64,000 nucleotides of DNA from the NCBI GenBank assembly GCA_951406725.2, contig OX597827.1, positions 20,646,001 to 20,710,000 of the forward strand, in the 5' to 3' direction. Positions 4,441-62,204 of the stretch are shown here, piece after piece (position 1 is the stretch's first letter; each line of letters opens with the position of its first letter). The DNA comes from Octopus vulgaris. Lineage: Eukaryota. Made by a program: the position numbers and the translations under genes. The notes beneath the pieces were generated by a model. That model did no database searches and was not told the DNA's origin. It was given only the letters and a program-made list of their open reading frames with translations.

Positions 4441-5028
4441 ATTAGTGTGGTGGTGGTGGGTCAATGTGTATGTATCTATGAGTCTAATTCAATAGAAGAA
4501 TTTCATATATATAAAAAAAACCTTATTTGTTTCAACATGAGTTGATGAATTTCTTTCAAATGCAAAAAATAACTTCCTAGCCACAAACTCTATTCAGGGT
4601 GTATCGTGTTTATTTCTTGTAAAGGTGCCTACTTCTGGTTTCCATTGGATACTACATTTCTTTTTAGTTCTATTATGTGAGGATCTATTATGTGCTGCTT
4701 CCGTGTTATCAATGTATTCTATGAAGCAGACATCTAAACTGTTGTTGACAGACCAATAGAGTGAGTTTTGTTAACACATCACTGTTACACTGCAGCAGAA
4801 TAATATTACAGGTAGATTCTGTGTGCAGTTTCATTTCATTGAAACAACTTTTAAAGCTTTTACATTCTTCTTTTACCAAATTCTAAATAATTTTAATAAC
4901 ATCAAGTGATGGTTTGTTGCCAACTTAATGTTGCAGTGCCAGGAAAGGGAATTATGCTACTGCTATTTGGCCCCAGGAAACATCATTTCCAGTTGACTGT
5001 GTGATACAAGCAATCTGTGTCCTTATCA

Positions 5029-5490
5029 GTGAGGAGGGTGCTTGTTGGACACCGTGCAGGACGTAAAATAAGACCTGTCAAAGAGCAGAAGGACTCAAGA
5101 GCAGTCAATGGCTATCCAACAATATGTGTACATGTATATGCATGCGTGAAAATACCTGGGTTAGTGTCCAGGCACACGGTTGGCCCACTGGGAGTGGGAG
5201 GACTCTCTATTATTGTCATAACATTTGTCAAGGAGAGGAAAACTCGGAGAAAACCTGTGACACTGACAATATCCGATGATGTAGACTAGTTCTTCTGTTC
5301 GAGTTTATTTTGTCCATGTTCAGGGAGTGGGATTGGCTTTGTGAAAATCCTCTCCCCTCTATAAAAAAATCATTATACACAGGTATCATTTGAAGAAAGA
5401 AAAAAAACCTATCACAAAGATGGCTGGTCATAGCCCTCGCATGTGTGGGACTTTCGATCAGGTGATGGAAATACTCAAACAAGCTTGCAA

Positions 5491-5527
<37 letters not shown>

Positions 5528-5535
5528 TACACACA
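5029..5535. repeat. Non-transposase flank duplicated in inverted orientation at 16245-16707
   Basis: GTGAGGAGGGTGCTTGTTGGACACCGTGCAGGACG... matches the reverse complement of 16245-16707 continuously up to the maT TIR. Confidence 0.85.
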
Positions 5536-6830
5536 CTGGGTGCAATGGACAAATTGTTGCCATCTTACATTTTTAATTTTGCGTATGTGTATTGTTTTTG
5601 ATTTTTCAAGTACACAGTATAGTAGGGTCAGTTGAGCACCGTCTGTGAAAAAGACACAGCACCATGATGCAGTTCTCTCTGCCAGAAATTTGGAAATGAC
5701 ATGCTGTACTGCTTGACATTCATGCCGGAAGCTCCAATGCGAACATTTAAGAGTGTTTGGGTGTCAATCTGAGGACAGTGCAGAGAATTCAGATAGAGTT
5801 GGATGAATGTAATGGTGATTATGAAGGTATGGCAGCTTGGAAAACTCACTCTGATCATTCCGATAAGAAAAGAACTCCTGAATCTGTTGGTGAGATCCAG
5901 GCCGTAATGGACAACAAACCCTCTAAGTCAGTCAGGCCCATCGCCAGGGACATGGGAGTGTCTGAGTTTCTTATCACGCAGGTAATGCATGAAGACGTTC
6001 AGTATTCCTCATACAAGATGAGAAAGGGCCAATTTTTAACCCGAGACATCAAGGACAAGAGGAAAGACCATGCTACGAAGCTTTTGAACAAATGCAAGCA
6101 TCCCCTCCAACCAAACATGCTTTGGCTTTACAAGAAAAATCTCTGCCAAGATCAGGCAGTGAACATACAGAACAGCCGTTGGCTTACCATGTCCCCAAAA
6201 CATGTATAGAAACTGATAGAAATCAAACATCCAGTCAACATCATGGTGTTTGGAGTGATCACTAGTGATGACGGCGTTATGCCTTCATTCATCTTCCCAC
6301 ACAGCTTCAGACTCGACATGGAGGCCTACATAAAGTGCCTGGAGGAGGTAGTGCTGCCCTGGATCAAGAGGGTGGCTGCTGGAAGACCCTATGTCTGGCA
6401 ACAGGACTCTGTACTATGCCGCACAAGCAGGTGAAACCAAGTTATAGCTGTCAGACAATTTCTGCAACCACATCACCCCTAACATCAGACCACCTAACTC
6501 CCGACACTGCAACTGCCTTGATTATTATGTGTGGGGTGCAGTTGACCAAGAGACCAACAAAACTCTGTGTAACGCCAAAGATGAACTGAAGGCAAGGATT
6601 ATGGCAGCATTCACCAGCTTAAACAAGGAAACCGTCCAGAAGAGTTGCAGGAGATTCCGAAATCGTCTGGAGACCCTGGTTGAACCCAATGGCAATTTTA
6701 TGGAATAAATGTACTCTTTAGTATTTCAAGATATTTTAATGTAATTTTGGTAAACATATCTGTTAAAATGAGATGTCATGTCATTTTCAGTTTTGCATAA
6801 TTTAGATGACAGCTTATTCACTGCACCCTG
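5536..6830 (+). mobile_element. Tc1/mariner maT-type (DD37D) transposon, decayed, copy 1
   Basis: TIRs C(T)GGGTGCAATGGA / TTCACTGCACCCTG-TA. Transposase fragments (MRKGQFL, IMVFGVITSDG, YVWQQDS) with frameshifts. A consensus built from the three copies gives QQD-x37-D (WPPNSPDCNPLDYYVW). Confidence 0.9.
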
Positions 6831-6857
6831 TATATGTTATATATATATATATATATA

Positions 6858-8111
6858 CAGGGCTTGGACAAAATAATGGCATCATAGCATCATAATTTTG
6901 AAATATCTATAAAACTGTCAAAAGCTTGTTTAATTTTATGTTTTTTGATTTATTATTAGTGTTGCTTTATATGTTTTGCTAAAATTGCTGTTTCTTTTGA
7001 GATATCATCAGAAAAAGGTAATTAAAATTTATTAAAATGCCAGATCTGTCGGACTTTCAAAGAGGTCACATTGTTGGTGCTCGTAAGGCAGGCACTAGCA
7101 TAACAGAAACAGCCAAAATGTTTGGTGTATCAAGAAGTACTGTCTCGAAAGTAATGACAGCCTTTGAGAAAGAGTGAAAAACCTCCTCGTTGAAACAAAA
7201 CACCGGAAGAATACCAAAACTTTCAGATAGGAACTGTCAGACTCTTACACGAATTGTTAGAAAGGATCACAAAAGTACAGCTCCCAAAATTACTGTAGAG
7301 AACCTCGAGAACCCATTTTACACAAAAATTGTTTGCTGGGAACTGCACAAAGCCAGATTTCACAGGTGGGCTGCAATCAGAAAACCACTACTTTCAAAAA
7401 CAAACGTTGCAAAGCATTTAGAGTGGAGTAAAAACTTACAGAATTGGTCCCTAGAGCAGTGGAAGAATGTTATTTTCTTAGATGAGTCATCCTTTACCCT
7501 ATTTACGACCTCCGGCTGAGTATACATGTGGAGACAGCTAAAAGAAGCATTTGACCCAGACTGCTTTCTTCCAACTGTTAAACATGGAGGAGGATCTGTG
7601 ATGATCTAGGGGGCTATATCTTGGAAATCTGCCAGCCTAGTAGTTTCTCTTCATGGCAGAATAAATACTCAAGACTATTTAAGCATTTTATCTGATCAAA
7701 TTCATCCTATGGTTGCGGAACTGTTTCCGGAGGGAAACACAATCTTTGAGGATGATAATGCACCAATTCACACAGCTAAAGTTGTTACTGAATGGTAGAA
7801 GGAACATTCTAGTGAAGTTAAACATCTTATCTGGCCGCCACAGTCCCCAGCTCTCAATATTATTGAACATTTATGGTGCATTTTAGAAAAACAAGTAAGG
7901 AGTCGATATCCTCCACCATCATCACTACAAGAACTGGAGACTGTTTTAGCTGAAGAATGGACAAGAATTCTTTTGGAAACAATTCAAACTTTGTACGAGT
8001 CCATACCTTGTAGAATTCAAGCTGTAATTACTGCCAAAGGTGGTCCTACCATATATTAAAATAAATTTGTCTGAAATTTTAAGGTGTTTCCATTATTTTG
8101 TCTAACCCCTG
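6858..8111 (+). mobile_element. Tc1-like transposon with DD36E spacing, full length, transposase pseudogene ~7037-8059
   Basis: TIRs CAGGGCTTGGACAAAATAATGG / CCATTATTTTGTCTAACCCCTG with TA flanks. Protein MPDLSDFQRGHIVGAR...WKNVIFLDESSF...VKHGGGSVMI*G...FEDDNAPIH...WPPQSPALNIIEHLW with several in-frame stops. Confidence 0.92.
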
Positions 8112-9449: not shown

Positions 9450-11111
9450 CATACATACATACATATATATATGTGTATATCACTCACTATATTGATATTC
9501 TCTCCACTGCTCTCTCCCTCTCTCTCTCTCTCTTCTATCTACTTCGTTTCATGCACACTCTCCCTGCACCCAATTATACACATATCGATCAGTGTGTCTT
9601 GCTTATGCAGTCTTTCTCCAATCTTTTGCATTTCCTCAATGAACTTAAACCAAAGTATAACAGGAGAAAAAGGAAAAAAAAATATAACAAACAACAACAA
9701 CAACAAAAAAAACAACAACCAATCAAGAAAATAAAATAAATTACAAATGTGAATAGGAAAATAAATCAATAAATTATGATAGGAGGGGGGGGGGGAGAAG
9801 TTTAATGAAGAGAAATAAAAATTGAAAATGAAAAACTGATAAGGAAAAACAAAACTAAAATGCTGCTATTATGTTCACGGCCAACCCCCAAAACTGTTCA
9901 ATGTTCAATAGAAGACAAAATAAATAATTTATTGATTGTGTTGTTGTTTTTAATGTGTTTTTGTTGCAGTTTTAAATTCAAATTTAAAACAAAAGAATTT
10001 TTAATCCCTCAACAGTGCTTCAAGAGGAATGGAAAGATTAAACTTTGACAGACCCCAAATGTCACCAGGGCAGCTCCGACCCTTTTCAGTTTTCCGTACC
10101 TTTTGCAAACAAAAGTTTGCTTTTAATGATCATCCTTTGAAACAGAAATTCTTTCGGATACTTGTCATGCCACCCTCTTTCACCTTCTCGCTTAATTCCT
10201 TCTCCAATTTCATTCTTTGTTGTTCTTTATATATATTGTTTCATTTATTGTTTTCTGTTGCTTATTTCCCCTTCCCACCTCTCTCTCTTCCTCCTCTCTT
10301 TTACACCATTTCCAATTCATTTCTGTCCAAGTATGTTTCCCTGTTCTGTTTCCTATTTTCTTCTCTATTTTCTTTAAATATTTACCATTTTCCATTTATC
10401 TAATACTTTCTCCACACACACACCATTTATCAAAACCATTTTCTCTCAATGTTTGCCCTACCCCCCACCTCCTCAGCTTCTCTTTCTGTTCCTCTTGTCT
10501 CCCTCTATCTCTCACACTCCCCTTTCTCTCTCTCCCTTTCTTTATTTTCTCTCTCATATTCCTCTCCCCTTACCTCTCTCCACTTTCGGTCCATTTCAGG
10601 TTTTACTCTTTGCCTTCTTAATTCTTTCTCATTTACAATCTTCTCCTTTTTCTCCCCAATTTCCTCTTACACTCAACACCTCTTTCTCTCTCTCCCCCTC
10701 CCTCTGTTTCCTCTCGCCCATTTTTCCTCCAACTCCACTCCCACTCAGGCCCCACACAAACCACCATGTCAAATCCTTTCTTCTCTGGACAGAATATCAA
10801 CCCTCTGGAATCCCTTCCCACAACTGCTCACTTTTTAATTTTTTACTTGTTTCAGGCATTGGACTGTGACCATGCTGAGGCACCACTTTGAAGGGTGTGT
10901 ATATATATATATATATAGGCTATATTAAATCTCTGAGTGAGATATAAACAGTAGCAATACGGAATTGTAACATATAATTGCCAACCAAGTGTGGTGTCCT
11001 ATACAGGACAGTGCTACTGACATTTATAGCCCCAGGAAGACATCTCTTCCAGCTGGCTGACACACATTCTGTGTCCGATTAATATACTTGGTTGCCAAAA
11101 ATCAAATTCGC

Positions 11112-11650
11112 TGACTGGCATCCGTGCTAGCGGGGTGCAAAGAGCACCATACGAGTGTGATCGTTGACAGAGCAGCTAACCGGCTTCCATGCCAGTGGCA
11201 CATAAAAGGCACCATTCGAGTGTGATCGTTACAAGTGTTGCCTTACTGGCACTTGTGCCCGTGCTAGTAGGGTGCTAAGAGCACCATCCGAGCCTGATCG
11301 TTGCCAGAGCGGCTAACTGGCTTCCGTACTGGTGGCATGTAAAAGGCACCATTCGAGCGTGATCATCACCAGCGTTGCCTTGCTGGCACCTGTGCTGGTG
11401 GCATGTGTAAAAAGATTCGAGCGAGGTCATTGCGAGTACCACCTGACTGGCCCCCGTGCCGGTGGCATGTAAAAAGCACCCACTACACTCTTGGAGTGGT
11501 TGGCGTTAGGAAGGGCATCCAGCTGTAGAAACTCTGCCAGATCAAGATTGGAGCCTGGTGCTGCCATCTGGTTCGCTAACCCTCAGTCAAATCGTCCAAC
11601 CCATGCTAGCATGGAAAGCGGACGTTAAACAATGATGATGATGATGATGA
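11112..11650 (+). mobile_element. SINE-like family A ((GAT)n tail, internal ~60-bp tandem units)
   Basis: Conserved GAGTGGTTGGCGTTAGGAAGGGCATCCAGCTGTAGAAAC...CATGCTAGCATGGAAAGCGGACGTTAAAC(GAT)n, found more than 12 times in the window. Confidence 0.85.
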
Positions 11651-11668
11651 TATATATATATATATAGA

Positions 11669-12052
11669 TATAGACATCACTAAGATAAATATGGGTGCTA
11701 GTCAGCACCAGCATTGATAGAAATATGAATATAGTTTAGCCATGGGGAAGAACTTATCTAATGACTGACAAGGGAGACAAGCTCCCTACAGCAAGCAAGA
11801 CAGAGCCAGATCATCGATGATTTCGGATTTGATTAATCCTCATCAGTGATTCTCACCCAGTTGCTGAGGGTTAAAGCTAACTCACTTTGTCAGTTTATAG
11901 GAGTCAGAGGCTGATTCCATAAATGGTAAAAGTGAAAATTGTAAATTATTAAAGTAGTTTATTTGCAATTCACAAGCAAAAGGCACAAGTATAGATGTCA
12001 CTAAGGCGACCAAGGGTGCTAGTCAGCGCCAGCATTGCTAGAAATAAGAGAA
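11669..12052 (-). mobile_element. Retrozyme-like element (321-nt monomer plus ~60-bp terminal redundancy)
   Basis: Imperfect direct repeat TATAGA..TCACTAAG...GGGTGCTAGTCAGC.CCAGCATTG.TAGAAATA, with GGGTGCTAG at 11693 and 12014, brackets the hammerhead at 11802-11853. Confidence 0.65.
11802..11853 (-). ncRNA. Type I hammerhead ribozyme
   Basis: Minus strand reads AGAATCA-CTGATGA-GGATT-aatca-AATCC-GAAA-TCATCGATGA-TC-TGGCTCT. The core is intact, stem II is 5 bp starting with G-C, stem III is palindromic, the triplet is AUC, and stem I pairs at 6 of 7 positions. Confidence 0.8.
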
Positions 12053-12058
12053 CAACAA

Positions 12059-13278
12059 TTAGGTTGGCAAGAAAGTAATTTCGGTTTTTTAATGTGAAGT
12101 AAAAGTCATTTTTTCATACAAAGAATGAACTTGAATCAATTATATATTTTCCATTTTGTTCGATGATCTTTTGCCATCATTCTAACAACATCATGATTCT
12201 GCACTCATTGACCTTCTGACCCTTATCAGCCAAAAACTGAAGCAAGTGTGATTTTAGGTCGTCATCATTATTAAAAGTTTAACCTTTCAAAGAATTTTGC
12301 AAACTTCAAAATAAATGGTAATCTGAAAGTGACATCACTTCCCAACCAAGCTCCAATGATTTTTCGCAAGTTAGCAAAGACATGTGTGGTCTAGCGTTAT
12401 AATTGTGGAACATGATTCCTTTATGATTTGCTGATTCTAGCTGTTTTTCTTTTATTGCTTCCTCCAGTTTCATTAGTTGTTGACAGTAAACATCTGAATT
12501 GATTGCTTGGTTCCTTAGAAGCAGCTCAAAATACACAACACCTTTGTAATCTTACCAAATTGACAGCATGGCCTCTTTTGATGCAGTTCAGCTTTTGATG
12601 TGGTTTGTGCTGTTATTGTAGACAATCCATTTTTCATCACCAATGATGATTCGTTTAAAAAAATAGGTTGATTCCATTGTGTTTGAGATGCATATTGCAA
12701 ATATTGATTCGTTGTGTTAAGTGAATCTCTTTCAGTTTATGTGGAACTCAAATATCGAGCTTCTTAATGAGTCAAAGTCATTTTAAGTGATTTTCAATTG
12801 TTATGTGTGATACATTTAACCTCTCTGCAATCTCTCGCACAGTTATATGACAATCAGATTCAATTATGGCTTTGATTTGGTCATCATCAACTTCGGGAGG
12901 TTGACCAAAATATTAGTCATCATTGAGTGAAAAATTTCCAGAAGGGAATTTTTTAAAACCATTTCTGACATGAGCATTCTGTTCAGCAATCAACATCATA
13001 AACTTCACATATCACTTTGTGAGGCTCAGCACCTTTCTTGCCTTAACAGAAATAAAAAAAAAAGAAGCAAAATATGGCGAAAATGTTTGTTTTTGCATTC
13101 CATGTTAAAATTGGCACTGAACTAACAGCTGTAAACAAAATTACGTACAATTTGCTTTTAAAGTAAGCTAAAAGTAATGACCATCAAATGTCAAGAGGAA
13201 AAATCATAACATTGACAAAAGTAATTTAAAAAATCGTAACTATCTACTTGCGAAAAACGAAATTAGTTTCTTGCCAAC

Positions 13279-13282
<4 letters not shown>
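12059..13282 (-). mobile_element. mariner transposon, decayed
   Basis: TIRs TTAGGTTGGCAAGAAAGTAATTTCG / CGAAATTAGTTTCTTGCCAACCCAA. Fragment YFELLLRNQAINSDVYCQQLMKL...HNYNARPH...LGWEVM..SDYHLF. Confidence 0.9.
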
Positions 13283-13333
<51 letters not shown>

Positions 13334-13334
<1 letters not shown>

Positions 13335-13507
13335 TACACTCGCGGAGTGGTTGGCGTTAGGAAGGGCATCCAGGTGTAGAAACACTGCTAGATCAGACTG
13401 GAGCCTGGTGCAGCCTCCTGGCTTCCCAGACCCCGATCGAACCGTCTAACCCGTGCTAGCGCAGAAAACGGACATTAAACGATGATGATGATGATGATGA
13501 TGATGAT
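13334..13507 (+). mobile_element. SINE-like family A, 5'-truncated
   Basis: Same 3' body and (GAT)n tail. Confidence 0.85.
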
Positions 13508-13530
13508 ATATATATATATATATATTTATA

Positions 13531-15045
<1,515 letters not shown>

Positions 15046-15047
15046 TG

Positions 15048-16244
15048 ACATCTCATTTTAAAAGATATATTTACCAAAATTACATAAAAATATCGTGAAA
15101 TACTAAAGAGTACATTGGCTTCAACCAGGGCCTCCAGACGATTTCGGAATCTCCTGCAACTCTTCTGGACGGTCTCCTTGTTTAAGTTGGTGAATGCTGC
15201 CATAATCCTTGCCTTCAGTTCATCTTTGGTTTTACAAGGACTTTTTTTGGTCTAACACTCAACTGCGCCCCACACATAATAATCAAGAGAGCTGCAGTGT
15301 GGGGAGTTAAGTGGTCTGATGTTAGAGTGATGTGGTCGCAGAAATTGTTTAACAGTTATAACTGGGTTCTCCTGCTTGTGTGGCATGGTGCAGAGTCCTG
15401 TTGCTAGACATAGGGTCTTCCAGCAGTCACCCTCATGATCCAGGGCAACACTACCTCCTTCAGGCACTTGATGTAGGTCTCTGTGTCGAGTTTGAGGCCA
15501 TGTGGGAATACGAATGGAGGCATAATGTCGCCATCACTAGTGATCACTCTAAACACTATGATATTGACTGGATGTTTGATTTTTATCACTTTTGGTACAT
15601 GTTTTGGGGACATGGCAAGCCAACGGTTGTTCTGGCAGAGATTTTTCTTGTAAAGCCAAAGCATGTTTTGTTGGAGGGGATGCTTGCATTTGTTCAAAAG
15701 CTTCGTAGCATGGTCTTTCCTCTTGTCCTTGATGGCTTGGGATAAAAATTGGCCCTTTCTCATCTTGTATGAGGAATACTGAACGTCTTCATGCATTACC
15801 TGCGTGATAAGAAACTCAGACACTGCAATGTTCCTGGCGATGGGCCTGACTGACTTGGAGGGATTGTTGTCCATCATGGCCTGGATCTCACCAACAGATT
15901 CAGGAGTTCTTTTCTTATCGGAATGATCAGAGTGAGTTTTCCCAGCTGCCATACCTTCATAATCACCATTAGATTCATCCAACTCTATCTGAATTCTCTG
16001 CACTGTACTCAGATTGACACCCAAACACTCTGAAATGTTCGCATTGGAGCTTCCGGCATGAATGTCAAGCAGTACAGCATGTCATTTCCAAATTTCTGGC
16101 AGAGAGAACTGCATCATGGTGCTGTTTTTTTTCACAGATGGTGCCCAACTGACCCTACTATACTGTGTAGTTGAAAAATCAAAAACAATGCACATATGCA
16201 AAATTAAAAATGTAAGATGGCAACAATTTGTCCATCGCACCCAG
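15048..16244 (-). mobile_element. maT-type (DD37D) transposon, decayed, copy 2 (3' TIR lost)
   Basis: The 206-aa ORF 15404-16024 is near-identical to the copy 1 protein. The 5' TIR ends at 16244 and the 3' end abuts a SINE-like repeat at 15045. Confidence 0.9.
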
Positions 16245-16805
16245 TGTGTGTGTGTGATTGCAAGCTTGTGTTTGAGTATTTCCATCACCTGATCGAAAGT
16301 CTCACACATGCAAGGGCTACGACCAGCCATCTTTGTGCTAGGTCTTTTTTTCTTTCTTCAAATGATACCTGTGCATAATGATTTTTTATAGAGGGAAAAG
16401 GATTTTCACAAAGCCAATCCCACTCCCTGAACATGGACAAAATAAACTCAAAAAGAAGAACTAGTCTACATCAACGGTTATTGTCAGTGTCGCAGGTTTT
16501 CTCAGAGTTTTCCTCTCCTTGACAAATGTTATGACAAGAAGAGAGAGTCCTCCCACTTCCGGTGGGCCAACCATGTGCCTGGACACTAACCCAGGTATTT
16601 TCACACATGCATATTGTTGGATAGCCATTGACTGCTCTTGAGCCCTTCTCCCCTTTGACAGGTCTTATTTTTCGTCCTGCACGGTGTCCAACAAGTACCC
16701 TCCTCACCAATCAAGCTTGATAGGGTTGCCAATTTAGTCACCGATGACCCAACCATGCAGCAGGTTGTACTGGGTTACATATTACCAGTAGCATTCAAGA
16801 GCGAC

Positions 16806-17255: not shown

Positions 17256-18589
17256 TCCCATTTCGACCTGACATAATATATATGTATATATATATGAAGA
17301 AGGGAACATTGAATTTTTGGAATAATAGATCTATGGACCCTACTTAGTCAGTAGTGCCGCTTCCTATGTGTTGTAAGTTCTACTCAATCAGAATTACACA
17401 CCAACAACTACCAGAATATTTTTTTTTACTTGTTATATTCTTATCAGGATTATGGAATCAGTCCACTAAAACCTTAAACTCTGGCTCATCATTTGATGGT
17501 ACTACCAACTCCATCTCCTCTAATTGGTAATTAGATTAATTACATACTTGTTACATTGCTTGGAAACACACAACATACCTAGCGAAATTGAATCATCAGA
17601 CTCCCTAATCTGTTAGAAATATGAGTTGAAAAGTTGCAGCTCTGCTGATGACACTTCTTCTTAGATTATTTATGGAAGGACTTTTAAAATAATTAAATAA
17701 AAGAAAGAACTTGCAAAATTGAAGAAAAAAAAATTATGAAAAAAATCTGTAAATAAGAATTATTTTGCAAAGGATTGGTAAGATGATCCCTCAAACTTGA
17801 CTCACATCATGTTTTTAGATAAATTTCTAATATATCCTCGTTCGTCGATGCCCAAAATCTAATTTGATTACTTTCACTGCTACAAACAATCAAATCAAAA
17901 TCAAGGAAATTGGAAATTTTAATGCTTTACATTAGGATTTACATTTCAACAACAACAAGAGCAACAATCCAAAAGAAAGGAAGAAAATTTGGTCTTCTTA
18001 CTGGTTTCGGCAAAACTTTGAGCGTCAACTGGGCATTTTCCAACTGGTGATTGCTCTGTGTCAGTAACTGTACACCTACAAGAGAATGGTTAGATCTGAG
18101 AGTGTTGGTTGGTAGTATTAGTGCTAAGATTTGTTTCAAATTTTTGCACAAGGTCAGTTGTTTTGGAAGAAGGCTCAACTGGTACTTTTTTTATCAACCC
18201 CCAAATGGACAAACGGCAAAAACAGCTTCAGGAGAATTTGAACTCTGAACATGAAAATGGACAAAATGCTGCTAGGCATTTCATCTGGCATGCTAACGGT
18301 CTTGCCAGTTTGCTGCTTACTGCAATGGTGATTATATTACTCTAGTGAGATGAGATTTGCATGGATGGTTGGATGGAGATGTGAAGTTCAGTTGGAGGTG
18401 TGGGTCAGAAAGGATTTTTTTATCCCTGTTAAAATGGCAAAAATTGATAAAGGGTCAAGGTAATAATGGTCAGCAAGTTTAGGACACTGAAGAGGTTTTC
18501 TCTGTTGACTCATTTAAAAAAAATATTTTTTAATATTTTTATGAAGAAAAGTACTGACACCACAAAAAAGGCACCCAATACACTCAGTA

Positions 18590-18850
18590 AAGTTGTTGGC
18601 ATGAGGAAGAGAACCCTGCTGCAGGGACCATACAAAAGCTACAGACATGCAGCTCAGGTCAGGAAAAACAAGCGTTATGAGATGCCACTCGAAGACTGTA
18701 AAGAATCTGGCTGGAGTGCAGTACACTTTCCTGTAGAAGTTGGATGGAGGGGTTTTATTGGAACCAGATTGAGACAGTGCCTGCTGTCATTTGGGTGTCA
18801 AACATTGGTGAGCAAATGCCACCTTGAAATAGATCCAGAGAGGAGATGAT
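18590..18850 (+). mobile_element. Fragment of the restriction-like endonuclease domain of an RLE-type (HERO/NeSL/R2-like) non-LTR retrotransposon
   Basis: RKNKRYEMPLEDCKESGWSAVHFPVEVGWRGFIG matches the K..RY..L...C...GW.....PVEVG.RGF motif of the RLE C-terminus. Confidence 0.75.
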
Positions 18851-20710: not shown

Positions 20711-20895
20711 CTTTATGATGTTTATAAAGAAGTACAGCCTCATTGTTACGCAGCGGGTAGGCTATATCCGTTATGTAACTGCCCCCATGTTCCTGACCAT
20801 TGAAGTACTCCAGAAGTTGACTCTTGTCGAAGTTCTCTGGAATGTTTGATACATGCACCTCCATACCTCCACATACACTGCACATTTTGCAGCCA
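20711..20895 (-). CDS. Exon of a host gene encoding an RRM-like domain (PARP14/PARP10/NMI-IFI35-type N-terminal domain)
   Basis: Acceptor TTTTCTCATTGCAG| at 20896 and a perfect donor AAAG|GTGAGT at 20710. Open frame (G)CKMCSVCGGMEVHVSNIPENFDKSQLLEYFNGQEHGGSYITDIAYPLRNNEAVLLYKHHK resembles the 'V.VSNIP....L..YF....GG.....A.V.F' pattern of PARP14/NID RRM-like domains. The ATG at 20885 has AAAATG context and may be the start codon. Confidence 0.7.
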
Positions 20896-21418
20896 CTGCA
20901 ATGAGAAAACAGAGAAAAGGTGTAAGTTGGAGAGAGAGAGAGAGCAAGATAGAGAGAGAGCGAGAGAGAGAGAGAGCGAGAGAGAGAGAGAGATGGTAAA
21001 AGAAATCAAATAAACCCAACAAGAAATTACACACACACACACATGATAACATATGATTAATACCACTGACCAGCATCTTGGCCATTTATTTTTTTTCTTT
21101 CTTTAGCCTCCAGTTGACCAACAGTCTGTGTATGGTATTTGATATCAGAAATGTGTGTGTGTGTGGTCATCCCTCAGAGTTGAAGATGATTGTTCATCAG
21201 GTTTAACTTCTCTTGCACCTATATAGCACAGACCAATGTAAGATCCACAAGTCTAGTGCTGGATCAGGTATTTGTTGTCTGTGAGGTTCCTTCATATTGC
21301 TTTCTACACAAACATTTATCAGTGAACCTTTGGGTTTGTTGACCTCCATCACAAACACTTCACCTACACTAGTTTTGGTTATTCTCAATTGTGGGAAACA
21401 CTGAGGATACAATTTTAT

Positions 21419-21807
21419 TATGGGACTGTCACATTGAGTTGACAGTATATGACCACTATATCGCTCCACCACCGCTCATGTCTCTCTGAGACATTTAGAA
21501 ATTCAATATTTCTCATTTTGGTGATCAGTAAATAAATTTTACTGAAAATAGCATATATTTGCGAAGGGGTTGCAGTCATCTCAGCGAGCGAGACAGGCTA
21601 CCCTGAACTGACGACGAGCAATAGACTCAGAAACATATGTCTTCAGGTGCTTAGTCCCAGCTGGCAGGGGTGATTGCCTCCCCATTGCAAATATAAGGAC
21701 ACAGAAAATGTGTCAAAGCCGACAGGAGATGTTTCCTAGGGCTAAATGGCGGTGTTGTAATTCCCTTACTGGACTGTCATATTGAGCTGACAGTATGCGA
21801 CCACTAT
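21419..21807 (+). mobile_element. Retrozyme-like / Penelope-related non-autonomous retroelement (348-nt monomer plus ~38-bp terminal redundancy)
   Basis: Direct repeat GGACTGTCA(C/T)ATTGAG(T/C)TGACAGTAT..GACCACTATA at 21423 and 21771. Central hammerhead. Flanking ACTGAGGATACA(A/G)TTT(T/C)AT duplication at 21400-21418 and 21808-21826 splits an RTE fragment. Confidence 0.7.
21602..21647 (+). ncRNA. Type I (minimal) hammerhead ribozyme
   Basis: Stem I CCTGAA(21602-07)/TTCAGG(21642-47) is a perfect 6 bp. Core CTGACGA, stem II C-GAG-caataga-CTC-A (imperfect first pair), GAAA, palindromic stem III CATATG, cleavage triplet GTC (after 21641). Confidence 0.75.
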
Positions 21808-22146
21808 ACTGAGGATACAGTTTCATAAGTTACCTTCAAGTATGTCTTTACACTATTTTCTCTGTCCTCTTGATTTGGCTTTTATTCAAACTGATATTGT
21901 GGAAATGATGCCTTCGTAACATGAGATATTCTTTCCTCTATTCTGTCACTGAATGGATGTGATTTTTCTCAGACATCTCTGCTGATATATTCCCAGTTTA
22001 TGGAGATGTTGTCTAGACCTTGTCCAAATTTCAAAACCATGAATGAGGACACAGCAGTAACTCTATACACCACACACTTAGTTGTATCATGTCATCATTT
22101 TTATACATCATTTTATGCACCCATCTTCTTGGAAATATATATTGAT

Positions 22147-35831: not shown

Positions 35832-36130
35832 TGCAGCATATAGGGGGCATATATATGAAAATTAGACTTGTTGGAACTCAAGAATTAAATTCGGAATTAA
35901 AAAGGTTAAACAGTTTAGGGGTGAAAGAAACCAACAAAGTATAAGTTGTTTTAGTGTTTTAAATTTGTTTCTGCATAGTTTTAATTGTCAGTTTGTTAGT
36001 TTTTTGTCTGTGAGGCAGACAGAGAAATGGCACTGGAGTTTGATAGAGATTGAACTCTTGAGCAGGTCACCCATTATCAACCAAAAAATTATTGGTTGAG
36101 TGCAACAAACTTCTGTTTCAGGTTTACACA
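35832..36130 (+). repeat. ~299-bp direct repeat, copy 1
   Basis: Near-identical to 37047-37344. Confidence 0.92.
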
Positions 36131-37046: not shown

Positions 37047-37344
37047 TGCAGCATATAGGGGGCATATATATTAAAATTAGACTTGTTGGAACTCAAGAAT
37101 TAAATTCAGAATTAAAAAGGTTAAACAGTTTAGGGGTGAAAGAAACCAACAAAGTATAAGTTGTTTTAGTGTTTTAAATTTGTTTCTGCATAGTTTTAAT
37201 TGTCAGTTTGTTAGTTTTTTTGTCTGTGATGCAGACAGAGAAATGGCACTGGAGTTTGATAGAGATTGAACTCTTGAGCAGGTCACCCATTATCAACCAC
37301 GGAATTATTGGTTGAGTGCAACAAACTTGTTTCAGGTTTACACA
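37047..37344 (+). repeat. ~298-bp direct repeat, copy 2
   Basis: Near-identical to 35832-36130. Confidence 0.92.
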
Positions 37345-59995: not shown

Positions 59996-61030
59996 TCCAT
60001 TTGCAAAGCTGAAGTGTGACTCACAACGGTATTTTGATTTCCTTATCTAGGATGGTGCTGCTACTGCTGCTGCTACATAAATAGATGGCATCCCCCAATT
60101 AAAAAAAAAAGGGACACACAGGTGAGTGTATGGAGTCAGACATTAACATACTCCCAACTGTAACCCACAGATGAGCAGTCACTTCACTCTGTTGCAACTT
60201 AATGAGGTCCTTACTCCTAGGAGCTGGTTGGACCCATGTCCCCTCTACATGAATCACCTGTCTTGCCCATCTCCCTTCTCCTCATGTCTACCCCAGAAGG
60301 CCCCCACATTGATCTATATGCTCAATTCTTCCTCTTCTGAAGGTGTCTAGATGTTGACTAAATAGACAGAGATTATGTGATCCTATTTCACATAAGGATT
60401 ATTAGCCAGACCATTACAAGAGACAGCCTTCCCATATGTTACACGCATAAGCTTGTTACATAGAAATTATCAATAAGTGCCTGCGATCCACATATGACCA
60501 GTCAAAGTTTGTTTGATGAGCTATATGCCCTATACAGGAGTTAGGCACAATAACCATAAAAGTTTGTAACACACAAATGTTTACTCTATAGACACACAAT
60601 GTATATGAAATATACCACAGTGGTAATTACAACATATTAATGTTAACTAGTTAAATAAATAAAAAATAAAAATTTAAACGTCAACTAATTACAATATATT
60701 CTTGTAATATTGAAAACAAAATATGCACAAACACAGAGAGAGAGAGAGACAGAGAGAGAGAGAGAGGCATATCTGTATATTAGATAGGTCTTAATACTGT
60801 TGCTGACGGTTAAAATCTAACAGATAAGACATGAGTCAATGTGAAGCTTCAGCAGAAGACATTGTCCTAAGGTGCCATGCAATAGGATTGAACCCAGAAC
60901 CATATCCTCCTCACAAAACAAACTGGTTAACAACACAGCCATGTCTGTGAGTATGTGCATGCATGCATTTCTATGGCCTGTAAAATTTTGTTTGATAAGC
61001 TCTCTCTCTCTCTCTCCATACAAAAATATA

Positions 61031-62204
61031 CAGGGTGCAGTGAATATATTGTTGTCTTAAGTTATGCAAAAATGAAAATAACACTGAGATCTCATTTTAA
61101 CAGATATATTTACCAAAATTACATAACAAATATCTTGAAATACTAAATAAATTTATTCAATGAAATCACCATTGGCTTCAACCATGGCCTCCAAACAACT
61201 TCAGAATCTCCTGCAACTCTTCTGGACAGTCTCCTTGTTTAAGTTGGTGAATGCTGCCATAACCCTTGCCTTCAGTTCATCTTTTGTGTTAGGAGGAGTT
61301 TTGTTGGTCTCTCACTCAACTGCGCCCCACACATAATAATCAAGGGAGTTGCAGTCTGGGGAGTTAGGTAGCCAAATGTTAGGGGTGATGTGGTTGCAGA
61401 AATTGTCTGACAGCTATAACTGGGTTCTCCTGCTTGTGTGGCATGGTACAGAGTCCTGTTGCCAGGCAGCCTTCCAGCAGTCACCCTCTTGACCCAGGGC
61501 AGCACTACTTCCTCCAGTCACTTGATGTAGGCCTCCATGTTGAGTTTGAGGCCGAATGGGAAGATGAATGGAGGCATAGCATTGCCATCACTAGTGATCA
61601 CACCAAACACCATGATGTTGACTGGATGTTTGATGTTTATCACTCTTGGTACATGTTTTGGGGACATGGCAAGCTAACGGTTGGTCTGTCTGTTCTCTGT
61701 CTGATCCTGACAGAAATTTTTCTTGTCTGAGAAAAACCGAAGCATGTTCGGTTGGAGGGGATGCTTGCATTTGTTGAAAAGCTTCTTCCTCTCATCCTTG
61801 ATGCTTAAGATAAAAATTGGCCCTTTCTCATCTTGTATGAGGTATACCAAATGTCTTCATGCACTACTTGCCTGATAAGAAACTCAGACACTCTCATGTC
61901 CTTGGTGACAGACCTGGTTGACTTGGAGGGATTGTTGTCAATCAAGATTCGGATCTCACCAAAAAATTCAGGAGTTCTTTTCTTATCAGAATGATCAGAG
62001 TGAGTTTTCTGAGCTGGCATATCTTCATAATCACTATTAGACTCATCCAACTCTTTCTGAATCCTCTCTGCTGTCCTCAGATTGAAATGTTCATACTGGA
62101 GCTTCAGCGTTCAAGTTTCTGACAGAGTGAATTGAGTAATGGTGCTATTCTTCTCACAGATGGTGCCCAACTGACCCTACTATACTGTTACTCATCGCAC
62201 CCTG
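61031..62204 (-). mobile_element. maT-type (DD37D) transposon, decayed, copy 3
   Basis: TA-CAGGGTGCAGTGAATA ... CATCGCACCCTG TIRs. ORF fragments 61805-62050 and 61272-61505 are homologous to copies 1 and 2. Confidence 0.9.

What the first reader, a model, noticed from the sequence alone, without database searches (positions are those of the whole stretch)
11669..12052. Second hammerhead element: 321-nt monomer with an intact minus-strand ribozyme
Seen: the minus strand has all hammerhead core nucleotides (CUGAUGA, G-C-closed 5-bp stem II, GAAA, palindrome UCAUCGAUGA, AUC site, 6/7-bp stem I). It lies between ~60-bp imperfect direct repeats 321 nt apart. The sequence differs from the 21.4-kb element but the layout is the same, so at least two families appear to coexist. 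Inference: the 10-nt palindrome favours dimeric cleavage. It would be transcribed in sense within an intron if the minus-strand gene extends this far.
Basis: partly seen in the sequence, partly recalled or inferred. Interest (0 to 1): 0.8.

Follow-up and report, generated by a model that had tools for sequence, protein, structure and literature searches.

The report
Decayed hammerhead retrozyme copy in octopus
A 388-base non-coding insert in octopus DNA carries a complete hammerhead self-cutting RNA motif and belongs to a many-copy repeat family; it is likely an aged single copy of a retrozyme, a known kind of small mobile element, and is predicted to cut itself poorly.

Summary
A type I hammerhead lies on the minus strand (11853-11802) between 60-bp direct repeats (82% alike, 321 nt apart). 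My strict descriptor finds it once here and in 0 of 300 simulated windows. The host is Octopus bimaculoides or a very close relative. The element probably lies in sense in intron 2 of a macro-domain gene, between a (TA)n run and a mariner-like transposon. Contigs from three large runs (523-729 each, 80% alike or more) show a multi-copy family with a unit of about 340 nt; this copy differs from the majority at about 7% of sites. Its stem I A-C mismatch is a G-C pair in 74-93% of contig depth, so 'intact' holds for the core only. With one ribozyme it cannot release a 321-nt circle. Folding predicts an inactive rod for the monomer (core paired with the palindrome); in the family-majority state the double hammerhead becomes the best dimer fold. 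Best reading: an old dispersed 1.2-unit copy of a non-LTR retrozyme, probably moved by a Penelope-like enzyme. Cleavage, expression and circles are untested. New member of a known kind.

The parts
11669..12056 (-). Whole element: 388 nt, 1.21 units of 321 nt, GC 39%, no reading frame over 46 codons
11990..12049 (-). 5' terminal repeat in RNA sense (the extra 0.2 unit); weak likeness to relatives may run on to about 12056
   Evidence: loose ends at 12050
11669..11728 (-). 3' terminal repeat in RNA sense, with a hairpin, ending in CTATA against the (TA)n run
11847..11853 (-). Hammerhead stem I, 5' arm; 11850 is the mismatched base that most relatives have as a G-C pair
11840..11846 (-). Catalytic core CUGAUGA
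11825..11839 (-). Stem II, 5 bp with loop AAUCA (3' A as in the loop 1-loop 2 contact motif)
   Evidence: PMC2632901 abstract
11821..11824 (-). Catalytic core GAAA
11810..11821 (-). 12-nt palindrome: 4-bp stem III in a monomer, 12-bp duplex (-15.5 kcal/mol) in a dimer; its 5' arm can instead pair with the core
11808..11809 (-). Predicted cleavage site after AUC (C17 = 11809)
   Evidence: hammerhead numbering from established knowledge
11802..11808 (-). Hammerhead stem I, 3' arm
11764..11894 (-). Predicted long imperfect stem that encloses the hammerhead (includes helix 11861-11866 with 11789-11794)
11650..11666 (.). (TA)n run after the (GAT)n tail of a SINE-like repeat: likely insertion target; no target-site duplication found
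12058..13283 (-). Neighbouring mariner-like transposon (terminal inverted repeats, Transposase_1 remnant at 12309-12551); not part of the element
18002..18075 (-). Coding exon 2 of the host gene; its GT donor opens the intron inferred to hold the element
20711..20885 (-). Coding exon 1 of the host gene; the 51 aa searched are 100% identical to O. bimaculoides XP_014782569.1

Best explanation
This is one dispersed, decayed copy of a multi-copy octopus repeat of about 340 nt carrying a type I hammerhead motif, likely a non-LTR retrozyme copied into a (TA)n run by a Penelope-like reverse transcriptase. Shown: motif, repeats, family, unit length, divergence, flanks. Inferred from the published retrozyme model: tandem source copies are transcribed, cut at successive hammerheads into unit RNAs and circularised. 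A Penelope-like enzyme nicks AT-rich DNA, starts at a fixed point near the 3' hairpin and copies the circle or a tandem transcript for more than one unit. That leaves one unit plus about 60 nt, which explains the terminal direct repeats. Predicted by folding: the family ribozyme is off as a monomer (core paired with the palindrome) and on as a dimer. This copy has since lost a stem I pair and about 19 nt net, has a single ribozyme, and is probably an inert passenger in an intron.
For: Complete type I core, 1 real hit against 0 of 300 simulated windows. 713, 729 and 523 contigs at 80% or more in three large runs, with near-unit-length copies about 85% identical. In relatives the sequence beyond 12050 runs back into the unit's own 11730-11760 region (36, 50 and 35 loose ends; go-back joints 12048 to 11736 and 12050 to 11752 in all three runs), so no foreign sequence is seen upstream among the rows listed. 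Unit = 321 + about 13 + about 6. The 3 listed variants that fall on scored helix pairs all keep or restore pairing; none of 29 listed variant sites in 11736-12018 falls in the 43-nt core, P about 0.006 if uniform. Both repeats carry G at 12005/11684 where 74-79% of depth has A, as expected from one template. (TA)n flank and 5 strand-switch joints among 15 listed fit Penelope-type insertions (PMC8557442 passages). Size, GC 39% and no ORF fit non-LTR retrozymes (PMC7229834), and dispersed monomers are described (10.64898/2026.07.22.740005). Penelope-like elements are present in octopus genomes. Double hammerhead equals the dimer minimum (-38.7 kcal/mol) in the majority state while the monomer stays 5.4 above the rod.
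Against: No contig listed proves a body-repeat-body tandem of two or more units (longest short side 52-53 nt, within one repeat). No Rfam hammerhead match. No partner reverse transcriptase or GIY-YIG hit in 150 of 204 window frames scanned, and no genome was available to look further. No target-site duplication. A fixed 3' end for this family was not seen among the 24 loose-end rows listed of 636. The variant table shows 40 of 142 rows and contigs were chosen for likeness, which inflates apparent core conservation. The three runs share several rare joints, so they may hold the same loci and are not independent. Energies come from a nearest-neighbour model without tertiary contacts and without a known active ribozyme as control.
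Confidence: 0.78

Rival explanations
1. It is the 5'-truncated end of an autonomous Penelope-like element (pseudo-LTR plus tail), with no circular RNA stage of its own.
For: Hammerheads sit in Penelope pseudo-LTRs (PMC4209133). Such elements leave partial tandems, inverted truncated copies, 30-40 bp tails and favour (TA)n (PMC8557442). Retrozymes and pseudo-LTRs are related. Tandem arrays were not proved.
Against: The best-supported loose ends at the element's upstream edge lead back into the unit, not into other sequence. The ribozyme has canonical stem I and II sizes and a full stem III, unlike the minimal forms typical of animal Penelope elements. No ORF in or beside it except mariner.
Confidence: 0.12
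2. The host has kept this copy as an active intronic ribozyme that cuts the pre-mRNA of the macro-domain gene.
For: Likely sense orientation in intron 2. None of 19 sites where most relatives differ from this copy falls in the 43-nt core, P about 0.04.
Against: Stem I carries a mismatch that most relatives lack. The monomer fold is predicted 11-12 kcal/mol above an inactive rod. The P value is weak and rests on a cut table. The intron holds many ordinary repeats.
Confidence: 0.04
3. It is a satellite-DNA monomer spread at the DNA level, or an integrated copy of an infectious viroid-like RNA.
For: Hammerhead repeats were first known as satellites (PMC7229834). The 321-nt unit folded as a circle is moderately stable (z -2.4 and -3.1 for the two registers; 3 and 0 of 60 shuffles as stable).
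Against: Single dispersed copy of 1.2 units in a microsatellite. The sister family shows 5'-truncated copies with a roughly common 3' end and a 19-nt target duplication, marks of retrotransposition. No opposite-strand ribozyme in the window. No exact core pattern match in viral contigs.
Confidence: 0.04
4. The motif is chance and the two repeats are independent insertions of a short element.
For: The repeats differ at 11 of 60 sites. A loose descriptor gives 0.15 hits per random window. No Rfam match.
Against: Strict motif 0 of 300. Contigs cover repeat and body as one unit across 285-305 nt. Both repeats share a minority base, and differ at one site as CA against TG, as from decay of one CpG.
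Confidence: 0.02

Closest known systems
Metazoan non-LTR retrozymes (Cervera and de la Pena 2020, PMC7229834; read: abstract, results parts 1-2 of 3, discussion; supplement not readable), closest example the mussel Mytilus galloprovincialis 350-390 bp repeat
   Same: Type I hammerhead in a non-coding unit of a few hundred bases, GC under 50%, many genomic copies, predicted self-paired RNA, mollusc host.
   Different: This locus is a 1.2-unit single copy, not a tandem; circles and cleavage are untested. Stem III is longer (4 bp, 12-nt palindrome) than the 1-2 bp typical of animals. The monomer is predicted self-blocked, whereas that paper predicts most animal retrozyme circles leave the ribozyme free.
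Dispersed retrozyme monomers and their Penelope origin (Li, Clavereau and Pollet 2026, 10.64898/2026.07.22.740005; read parts 1-3 of 5)
   Same: Solo monomers spread along chromosomes, over 40% intronic in Xenopus, read as offspring that cannot transpose; 8 of 9 tested dimers did not cleave.
   Different: No cephalopod is mentioned in the parts read. By that paper's rule (two consecutive units with ribozymes) this copy is not an active retrozyme.
Penelope-like element pseudo-LTRs with hammerheads (PMC4209133 parts 1-2 of 4; PMC8557442 passages; PMC11167929 parts 1-2 of 4)
   Same: Type I hammerhead, palindromic stem III, AT-rich or (TA)n target, terminal extension, inverted neighbours, internal start of reverse transcription downstream of the ribozyme.
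   Different: No RT-endonuclease ORF here. The duplicated end is about 60 nt against a 30-40 bp tail. The ribozyme is canonical in size, not minimal.
Rfam Hammerhead_1 hits in the giant squid genome (235 loci; PMC6962438 passage)
   Same: Type I hammerheads in a cephalopod genome.
   Different: Only a count in the passage seen, not described as elements; this motif is not matched by any Rfam model.

Membership tests
Type I hammerhead ribozyme | Core CUGANGA, GAAA, NUH with three helices, open at stem I | tested here: met
Type I hammerhead ribozyme | Match to a curated Rfam hammerhead model | tested here: not met
   No hammerhead family listed at E up to 10 or up to 1
Type I hammerhead ribozyme | Helices kept across homologous copies | tested here: inconclusive
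   3 of 3 listed variants on scored helix pairs keep or restore pairing, all one-sided; none listed in stem II; 40 of 142 rows shown
Type I hammerhead ribozyme | Self-cleavage at the NUH site | not testable with these tools
   Only contigs were available; folding predicts weak activity for this copy
Non-LTR retrozyme | Non-coding unit of about 150-450 bp, GC under 50%, holding a type I hammerhead | tested here: met
   321 nt here, about 340 in family; GC 0.39; longest stop-free frame 46 codons
Non-LTR retrozyme | Multi-copy family | tested here: met
Non-LTR retrozyme | Head-to-tail tandem copies with two or more ribozymes | tested here: inconclusive
   Not met at this locus (1.21 units, one ribozyme). 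In the family, go-back joints exist but none listed proves more than 1.2 units
Non-LTR retrozyme | Expressed as unit-length linear and circular RNA | not testable with these tools
   Contigs cannot show ends, strand or circles
Non-LTR retrozyme | Target-site duplication longer than 4 bp when present | tested here: inconclusive
   None at this copy, which abuts (TA)n and a mariner end; 19 nt at the 21.4-kb element
Autonomous Penelope-like element | ORF with reverse transcriptase and GIY-YIG endonuclease between pseudo-LTRs | tested here: not met
   No ORF in the element; no such Pfam hit in 150 of 204 window frames
Autonomous Penelope-like element | Sequence homology of the unit to a pseudo-LTR of an octopus Penelope family | not testable with these tools
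   No genome held; no Repbase or Dfam
Plant-type LTR retrozyme | Type III hammerhead inside two 300-400 bp LTRs, 4-bp target duplication | tested here: not met
   Type I motif, lying between and not inside 60-bp repeats; definition from PMC5680766 passages

The most novel reading that the evidence does not exclude
Octopus retrozymes carry a built-in safety catch: a 12-nt stem III palindrome whose 5' arm locks the catalytic core in single copies and circles and is released only when two units pair. Only 10 of 1024 possible palindromes give as large a predicted block. In addition, two families with unrelated sequences both end in a hairpin followed by CTATA, which could be a shared handle for the partner Penelope enzyme; a 2020 review (PMC7761336) says animal retrozymes show no such conserved motif. 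This would explain how retrozyme circles escape self-cleavage and how such copies are tolerated in introns.
Probability: 0.2. Interest if true: 0.55.

Novelty: new member of a known kind. Interest (0 to 1): 0.27.

Why it matters
As it stands it extends non-LTR retrozymes to octopus, where my searches found no description, and shows a family that Rfam misses. That is a modest addition. It would matter more if the predicted monomer-off, dimer-on switch is real, because how animal retrozyme circles avoid cutting themselves is stated as open in PMC7229834, and if the shared 3' end identifies the mobilising Penelope family, which is also open. Both are cheap to test with a genome and a transcription assay.

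Tried and rejected
Whole genome: none held, so copy number, tandem arrays, 3' end alignment and a partner element could not be examined directly. Rfam: three scans, no hammerhead hit. RNA evidence: no RNA holder listed; the one run guessed to be RNA gave 17 contigs and may contain DNA; neither is evidence for or against expression. Summed contig depth is not a copy number and is not used as one. Viral contigs: 0 exact matches to a gapped core pattern. tRNA module: none in 10500-13600. Other copies of this family in the window: none by BLAST or nhmmer. Homology between this element and the 21.4-kb one: not significant. The idea that the mariner split the element: no continuation beyond 13283, only (TA)n and a SINE-like repeat. 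Strict palindrome conservation: a sister subfamily keeps the outer stem III pairs and swaps pair 5 from U-A to C-G in the consensus lines of three runs, but the central two bases are palindromic in 1 of 3 lines and agreement is 0.53-0.58, so this is a hint only. Earlier scan notes: nothing for this place or sequence. The supplement of PMC7229834 could not be read and may list cephalopod examples.

Full report
Observation. The minus strand of 11853-11802 reads as a type I hammerhead: stem I 5' arm, CUGAUGA, a 5-bp stem II closed by G-C with loop AAUCA, GAAA, a 12-nt palindrome ending in AU, C17 at 11809, and the stem I 3' arm. My descriptor found this one site on both strands of the window. In 300 simulated windows a loose form gave 44 hits and a strict form, set after seeing the motif, gave 0. 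The repeats at 11669-11728 and 11990-12049 are 49 of 60 identical and 321 nt apart. No Rfam hammerhead model matched in three scans. The element spans about 388 nt (1.21 units), GC 39%, with no stop-free frame over 46 codons.

Host and setting. A 51-aa exon translation is 100% identical to a protein labelled Octopus bimaculoides XP_014782569.1 (1530 aa; Pfam PF23085, PF01661, PF18102; the macro and Deltex names for the last two are recalled); 3 hits among 5 candidates. Its first two coding exons map to 20885-20711 and 18075-18002 on the minus strand with proper splice sites, and residues 85 onward have no match in the window. The element is therefore likely in sense in intron 2, if the gene continues on this scaffold. 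On one side lie a SINE-like repeat, its (GAT)n tail and (TA)n. On the other lies a mariner-like element, 12058-13283, with inverted ends and a transposase remnant. No target-site duplication was found. No reverse transcriptase or GIY-YIG family was hit in 150 of 204 non-repetitive frames of 62 codons or more.

Family. No genome was held. Twenty public runs under six organism labels hold part of the stretch, none half or more of its words. I laid 4 of them at 80% likeness: 713, 729, 523 and 17 contigs fitted. Two contigs cover 285 and 305 nt of the unit at about 85% identity. One contig of organism C crosses the element-mariner junction with one difference, so that organism holds this locus. 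Beyond 12050, 36, 50 and 35 contigs continue into sequence like 11730-11760. Relatives have 11-13 more bases near 11901 (6 of 7 records checked; one is 19 shorter) and 4-6 more near 11730 (10 of 11 joints checked; one is 12 shorter), so the family unit is about 340 nt. Of 15 joints listed (75 not shown), 4 go back, 5 switch strand and 6 skip. None proves more than 1.2 units in tandem. The three large runs share several rare joints and may hold the same loci.

Conservation and age. The tool listed 40 of 142 variant rows. I set aside the 11 rows at 11692-11735, which rest on 1-4 contigs, and used 29 sites in 11736-12018. None lies in 11807-11849 (P about 0.006 if uniform; biased by the cut table and by selection for likeness). 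Three variants fall on scored helix pairs and all keep pairing: the stem I A-C mismatch is G-C in 74, 93 and 82% of depth; the U.G pair is U-A in 24-36%; an outer A-U becomes G.U. Two more fall on a mismatch and stay mismatched. All are one-sided. At 19 of 283 sites (6.7%) most relatives differ from this copy. The two repeats share G at 12005/11684 where 74-79% of depth has A, and differ at one site as CA against TG. This fits one template followed by separate decay, not two insertions.

Folding. The 91-nt region folds more stably than all 200 shuffles (z -3.4), but as a rod in which the core's UGAUGA pairs with the palindrome's 5' arm. The hammerhead fold is 11-12 kcal/mol above it in all contexts tried. 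Among 1024 possible palindromes the median gap is 4.9 and only 10 reach 11.9. As a double hammerhead this copy is still 3.8-4.9 kcal/mol per ribozyme above inactive folds. With the majority base at 11850 the monomer gap is 5.4 and the double hammerhead equals the dimer minimum, -38.7 kcal/mol. The model omits tertiary contacts and I had no active ribozyme as control; a gap of 5.4 is close to the null median, so 'off as monomer' is much weaker for the family than for this copy. A sister subfamily with a different palindrome centre is visible in loose ends at 11793, so the block may not be general.

Mechanism. Shown: motif, repeats, family, unit size, flanks, divergence. Inferred from PMC7229834 (results parts 1-2 of 3 and discussion) and PMC7761336 (passages): tandem copies are transcribed, cut into units, circularised by a host ligase and reverse-transcribed for more than one unit. 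A Penelope-like enzyme is the likely helper. Such enzymes nick AT-rich DNA and start inside their RNA (PMC11167929), leave inverted truncated neighbours and favour (TA)n (PMC8557442), and occur in octopus genomes (PMC13282606 and PMC8967140 passages). The 21.4-kb family supports this route in the same window: a 19-nt target duplication and two 5'-truncated fragments that end near the same 3' point. A fixed 3' end for the present family was not visible in the 24 loose-end rows shown of 636. With one ribozyme this locus cannot release a circle, and it is probably inert.

Comparison and novelty. It works like a non-LTR retrozyme and meets the sequence criteria. Tandem organisation is not met at this locus and is unresolved in the family; cleavage and circles were not testable. 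Dispersed monomers, many of them intronic, are described (10.64898/2026.07.22.740005), and dimer-dependent palindromic hammerheads are the rule in animals (PMC4209133). Searches for hammerhead ribozyme plus octopus (5 papers, 4 listed), cephalopod plus Penelope plus hammerhead (3 papers, 2 listed) and retrozyme plus octopus (3 papers, 2 listed) showed no description of an octopus family; I judged most of these from the listing. A giant squid paper counts 235 Rfam hammerhead hits. Repbase, Dfam and the supplement of PMC7229834 were not seen. Two earlier scan notes on similar elements in other genomes agree with this reading but were not checked.

Verdict. Real feature, correctly described; an aged copy of a retrozyme-type repeat in a host group where I found none described. 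New member of a known kind, interest 0.27. The predicted core-locking palindrome and the shared 3' end are the parts worth testing.

Noticed in passing
window 21400-21826 (+): The other hammerhead element: 348-nt unit, type I core with a damaged stem II, 8-nt palindrome, and a 19-nt target-site duplication (21400-21418 and 21808-21826, 17 of 19 identical). Like the present element it ends 3' in a hairpin followed by CTATA.
   Followed up: partly
window about 4902-5035 (-) and about 10970-11076 (-): Two degraded 5'-truncated fragments of the 21.4-kb family that end near the same 3' point, as expected for target-primed retrotransposition.
   Followed up: partly
loose ends behind 11793: A sister subfamily shares the unit but has a different stem I arm and a different centre of the stem III palindrome; pair 5 appears as C-G instead of U-A in three noisy consensus lines.
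   Followed up: partly
window 20885-20711 and 18075-18002 (-): First two coding exons of a 1530-aa octopus protein with a PARP14-type RRM and, by recalled Pfam names, macro and Deltex C-terminal domains; intron 2 would be at least 18 kb.
   Followed up: partly
window 12058-13283, 13531-14758, 5029-6838, 15040-16707, 61023-62192, 7178-8056: Several decayed Tc1/mariner-like transposons; three copies of one family are 80-88% identical. Bounds are approximate.
   Followed up: no
window 11110-11650 and about a dozen other places: A very common SINE-like repeat with a (GAT)n(TA)n tail and tandemly repeated internal modules; its identity with the published octopus SINE is recalled, not tested.
   Followed up: no
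window 35832-36130 and 37047-37344: A 300-bp direct duplication at 97% identity, 1.2 kb apart.
   Followed up: no
window 18451-18849 (+): A 132-aa frame that looks by eye like the end of a restriction-like-endonuclease LINE protein; no Pfam hit, resemblance recalled.
   Followed up: no
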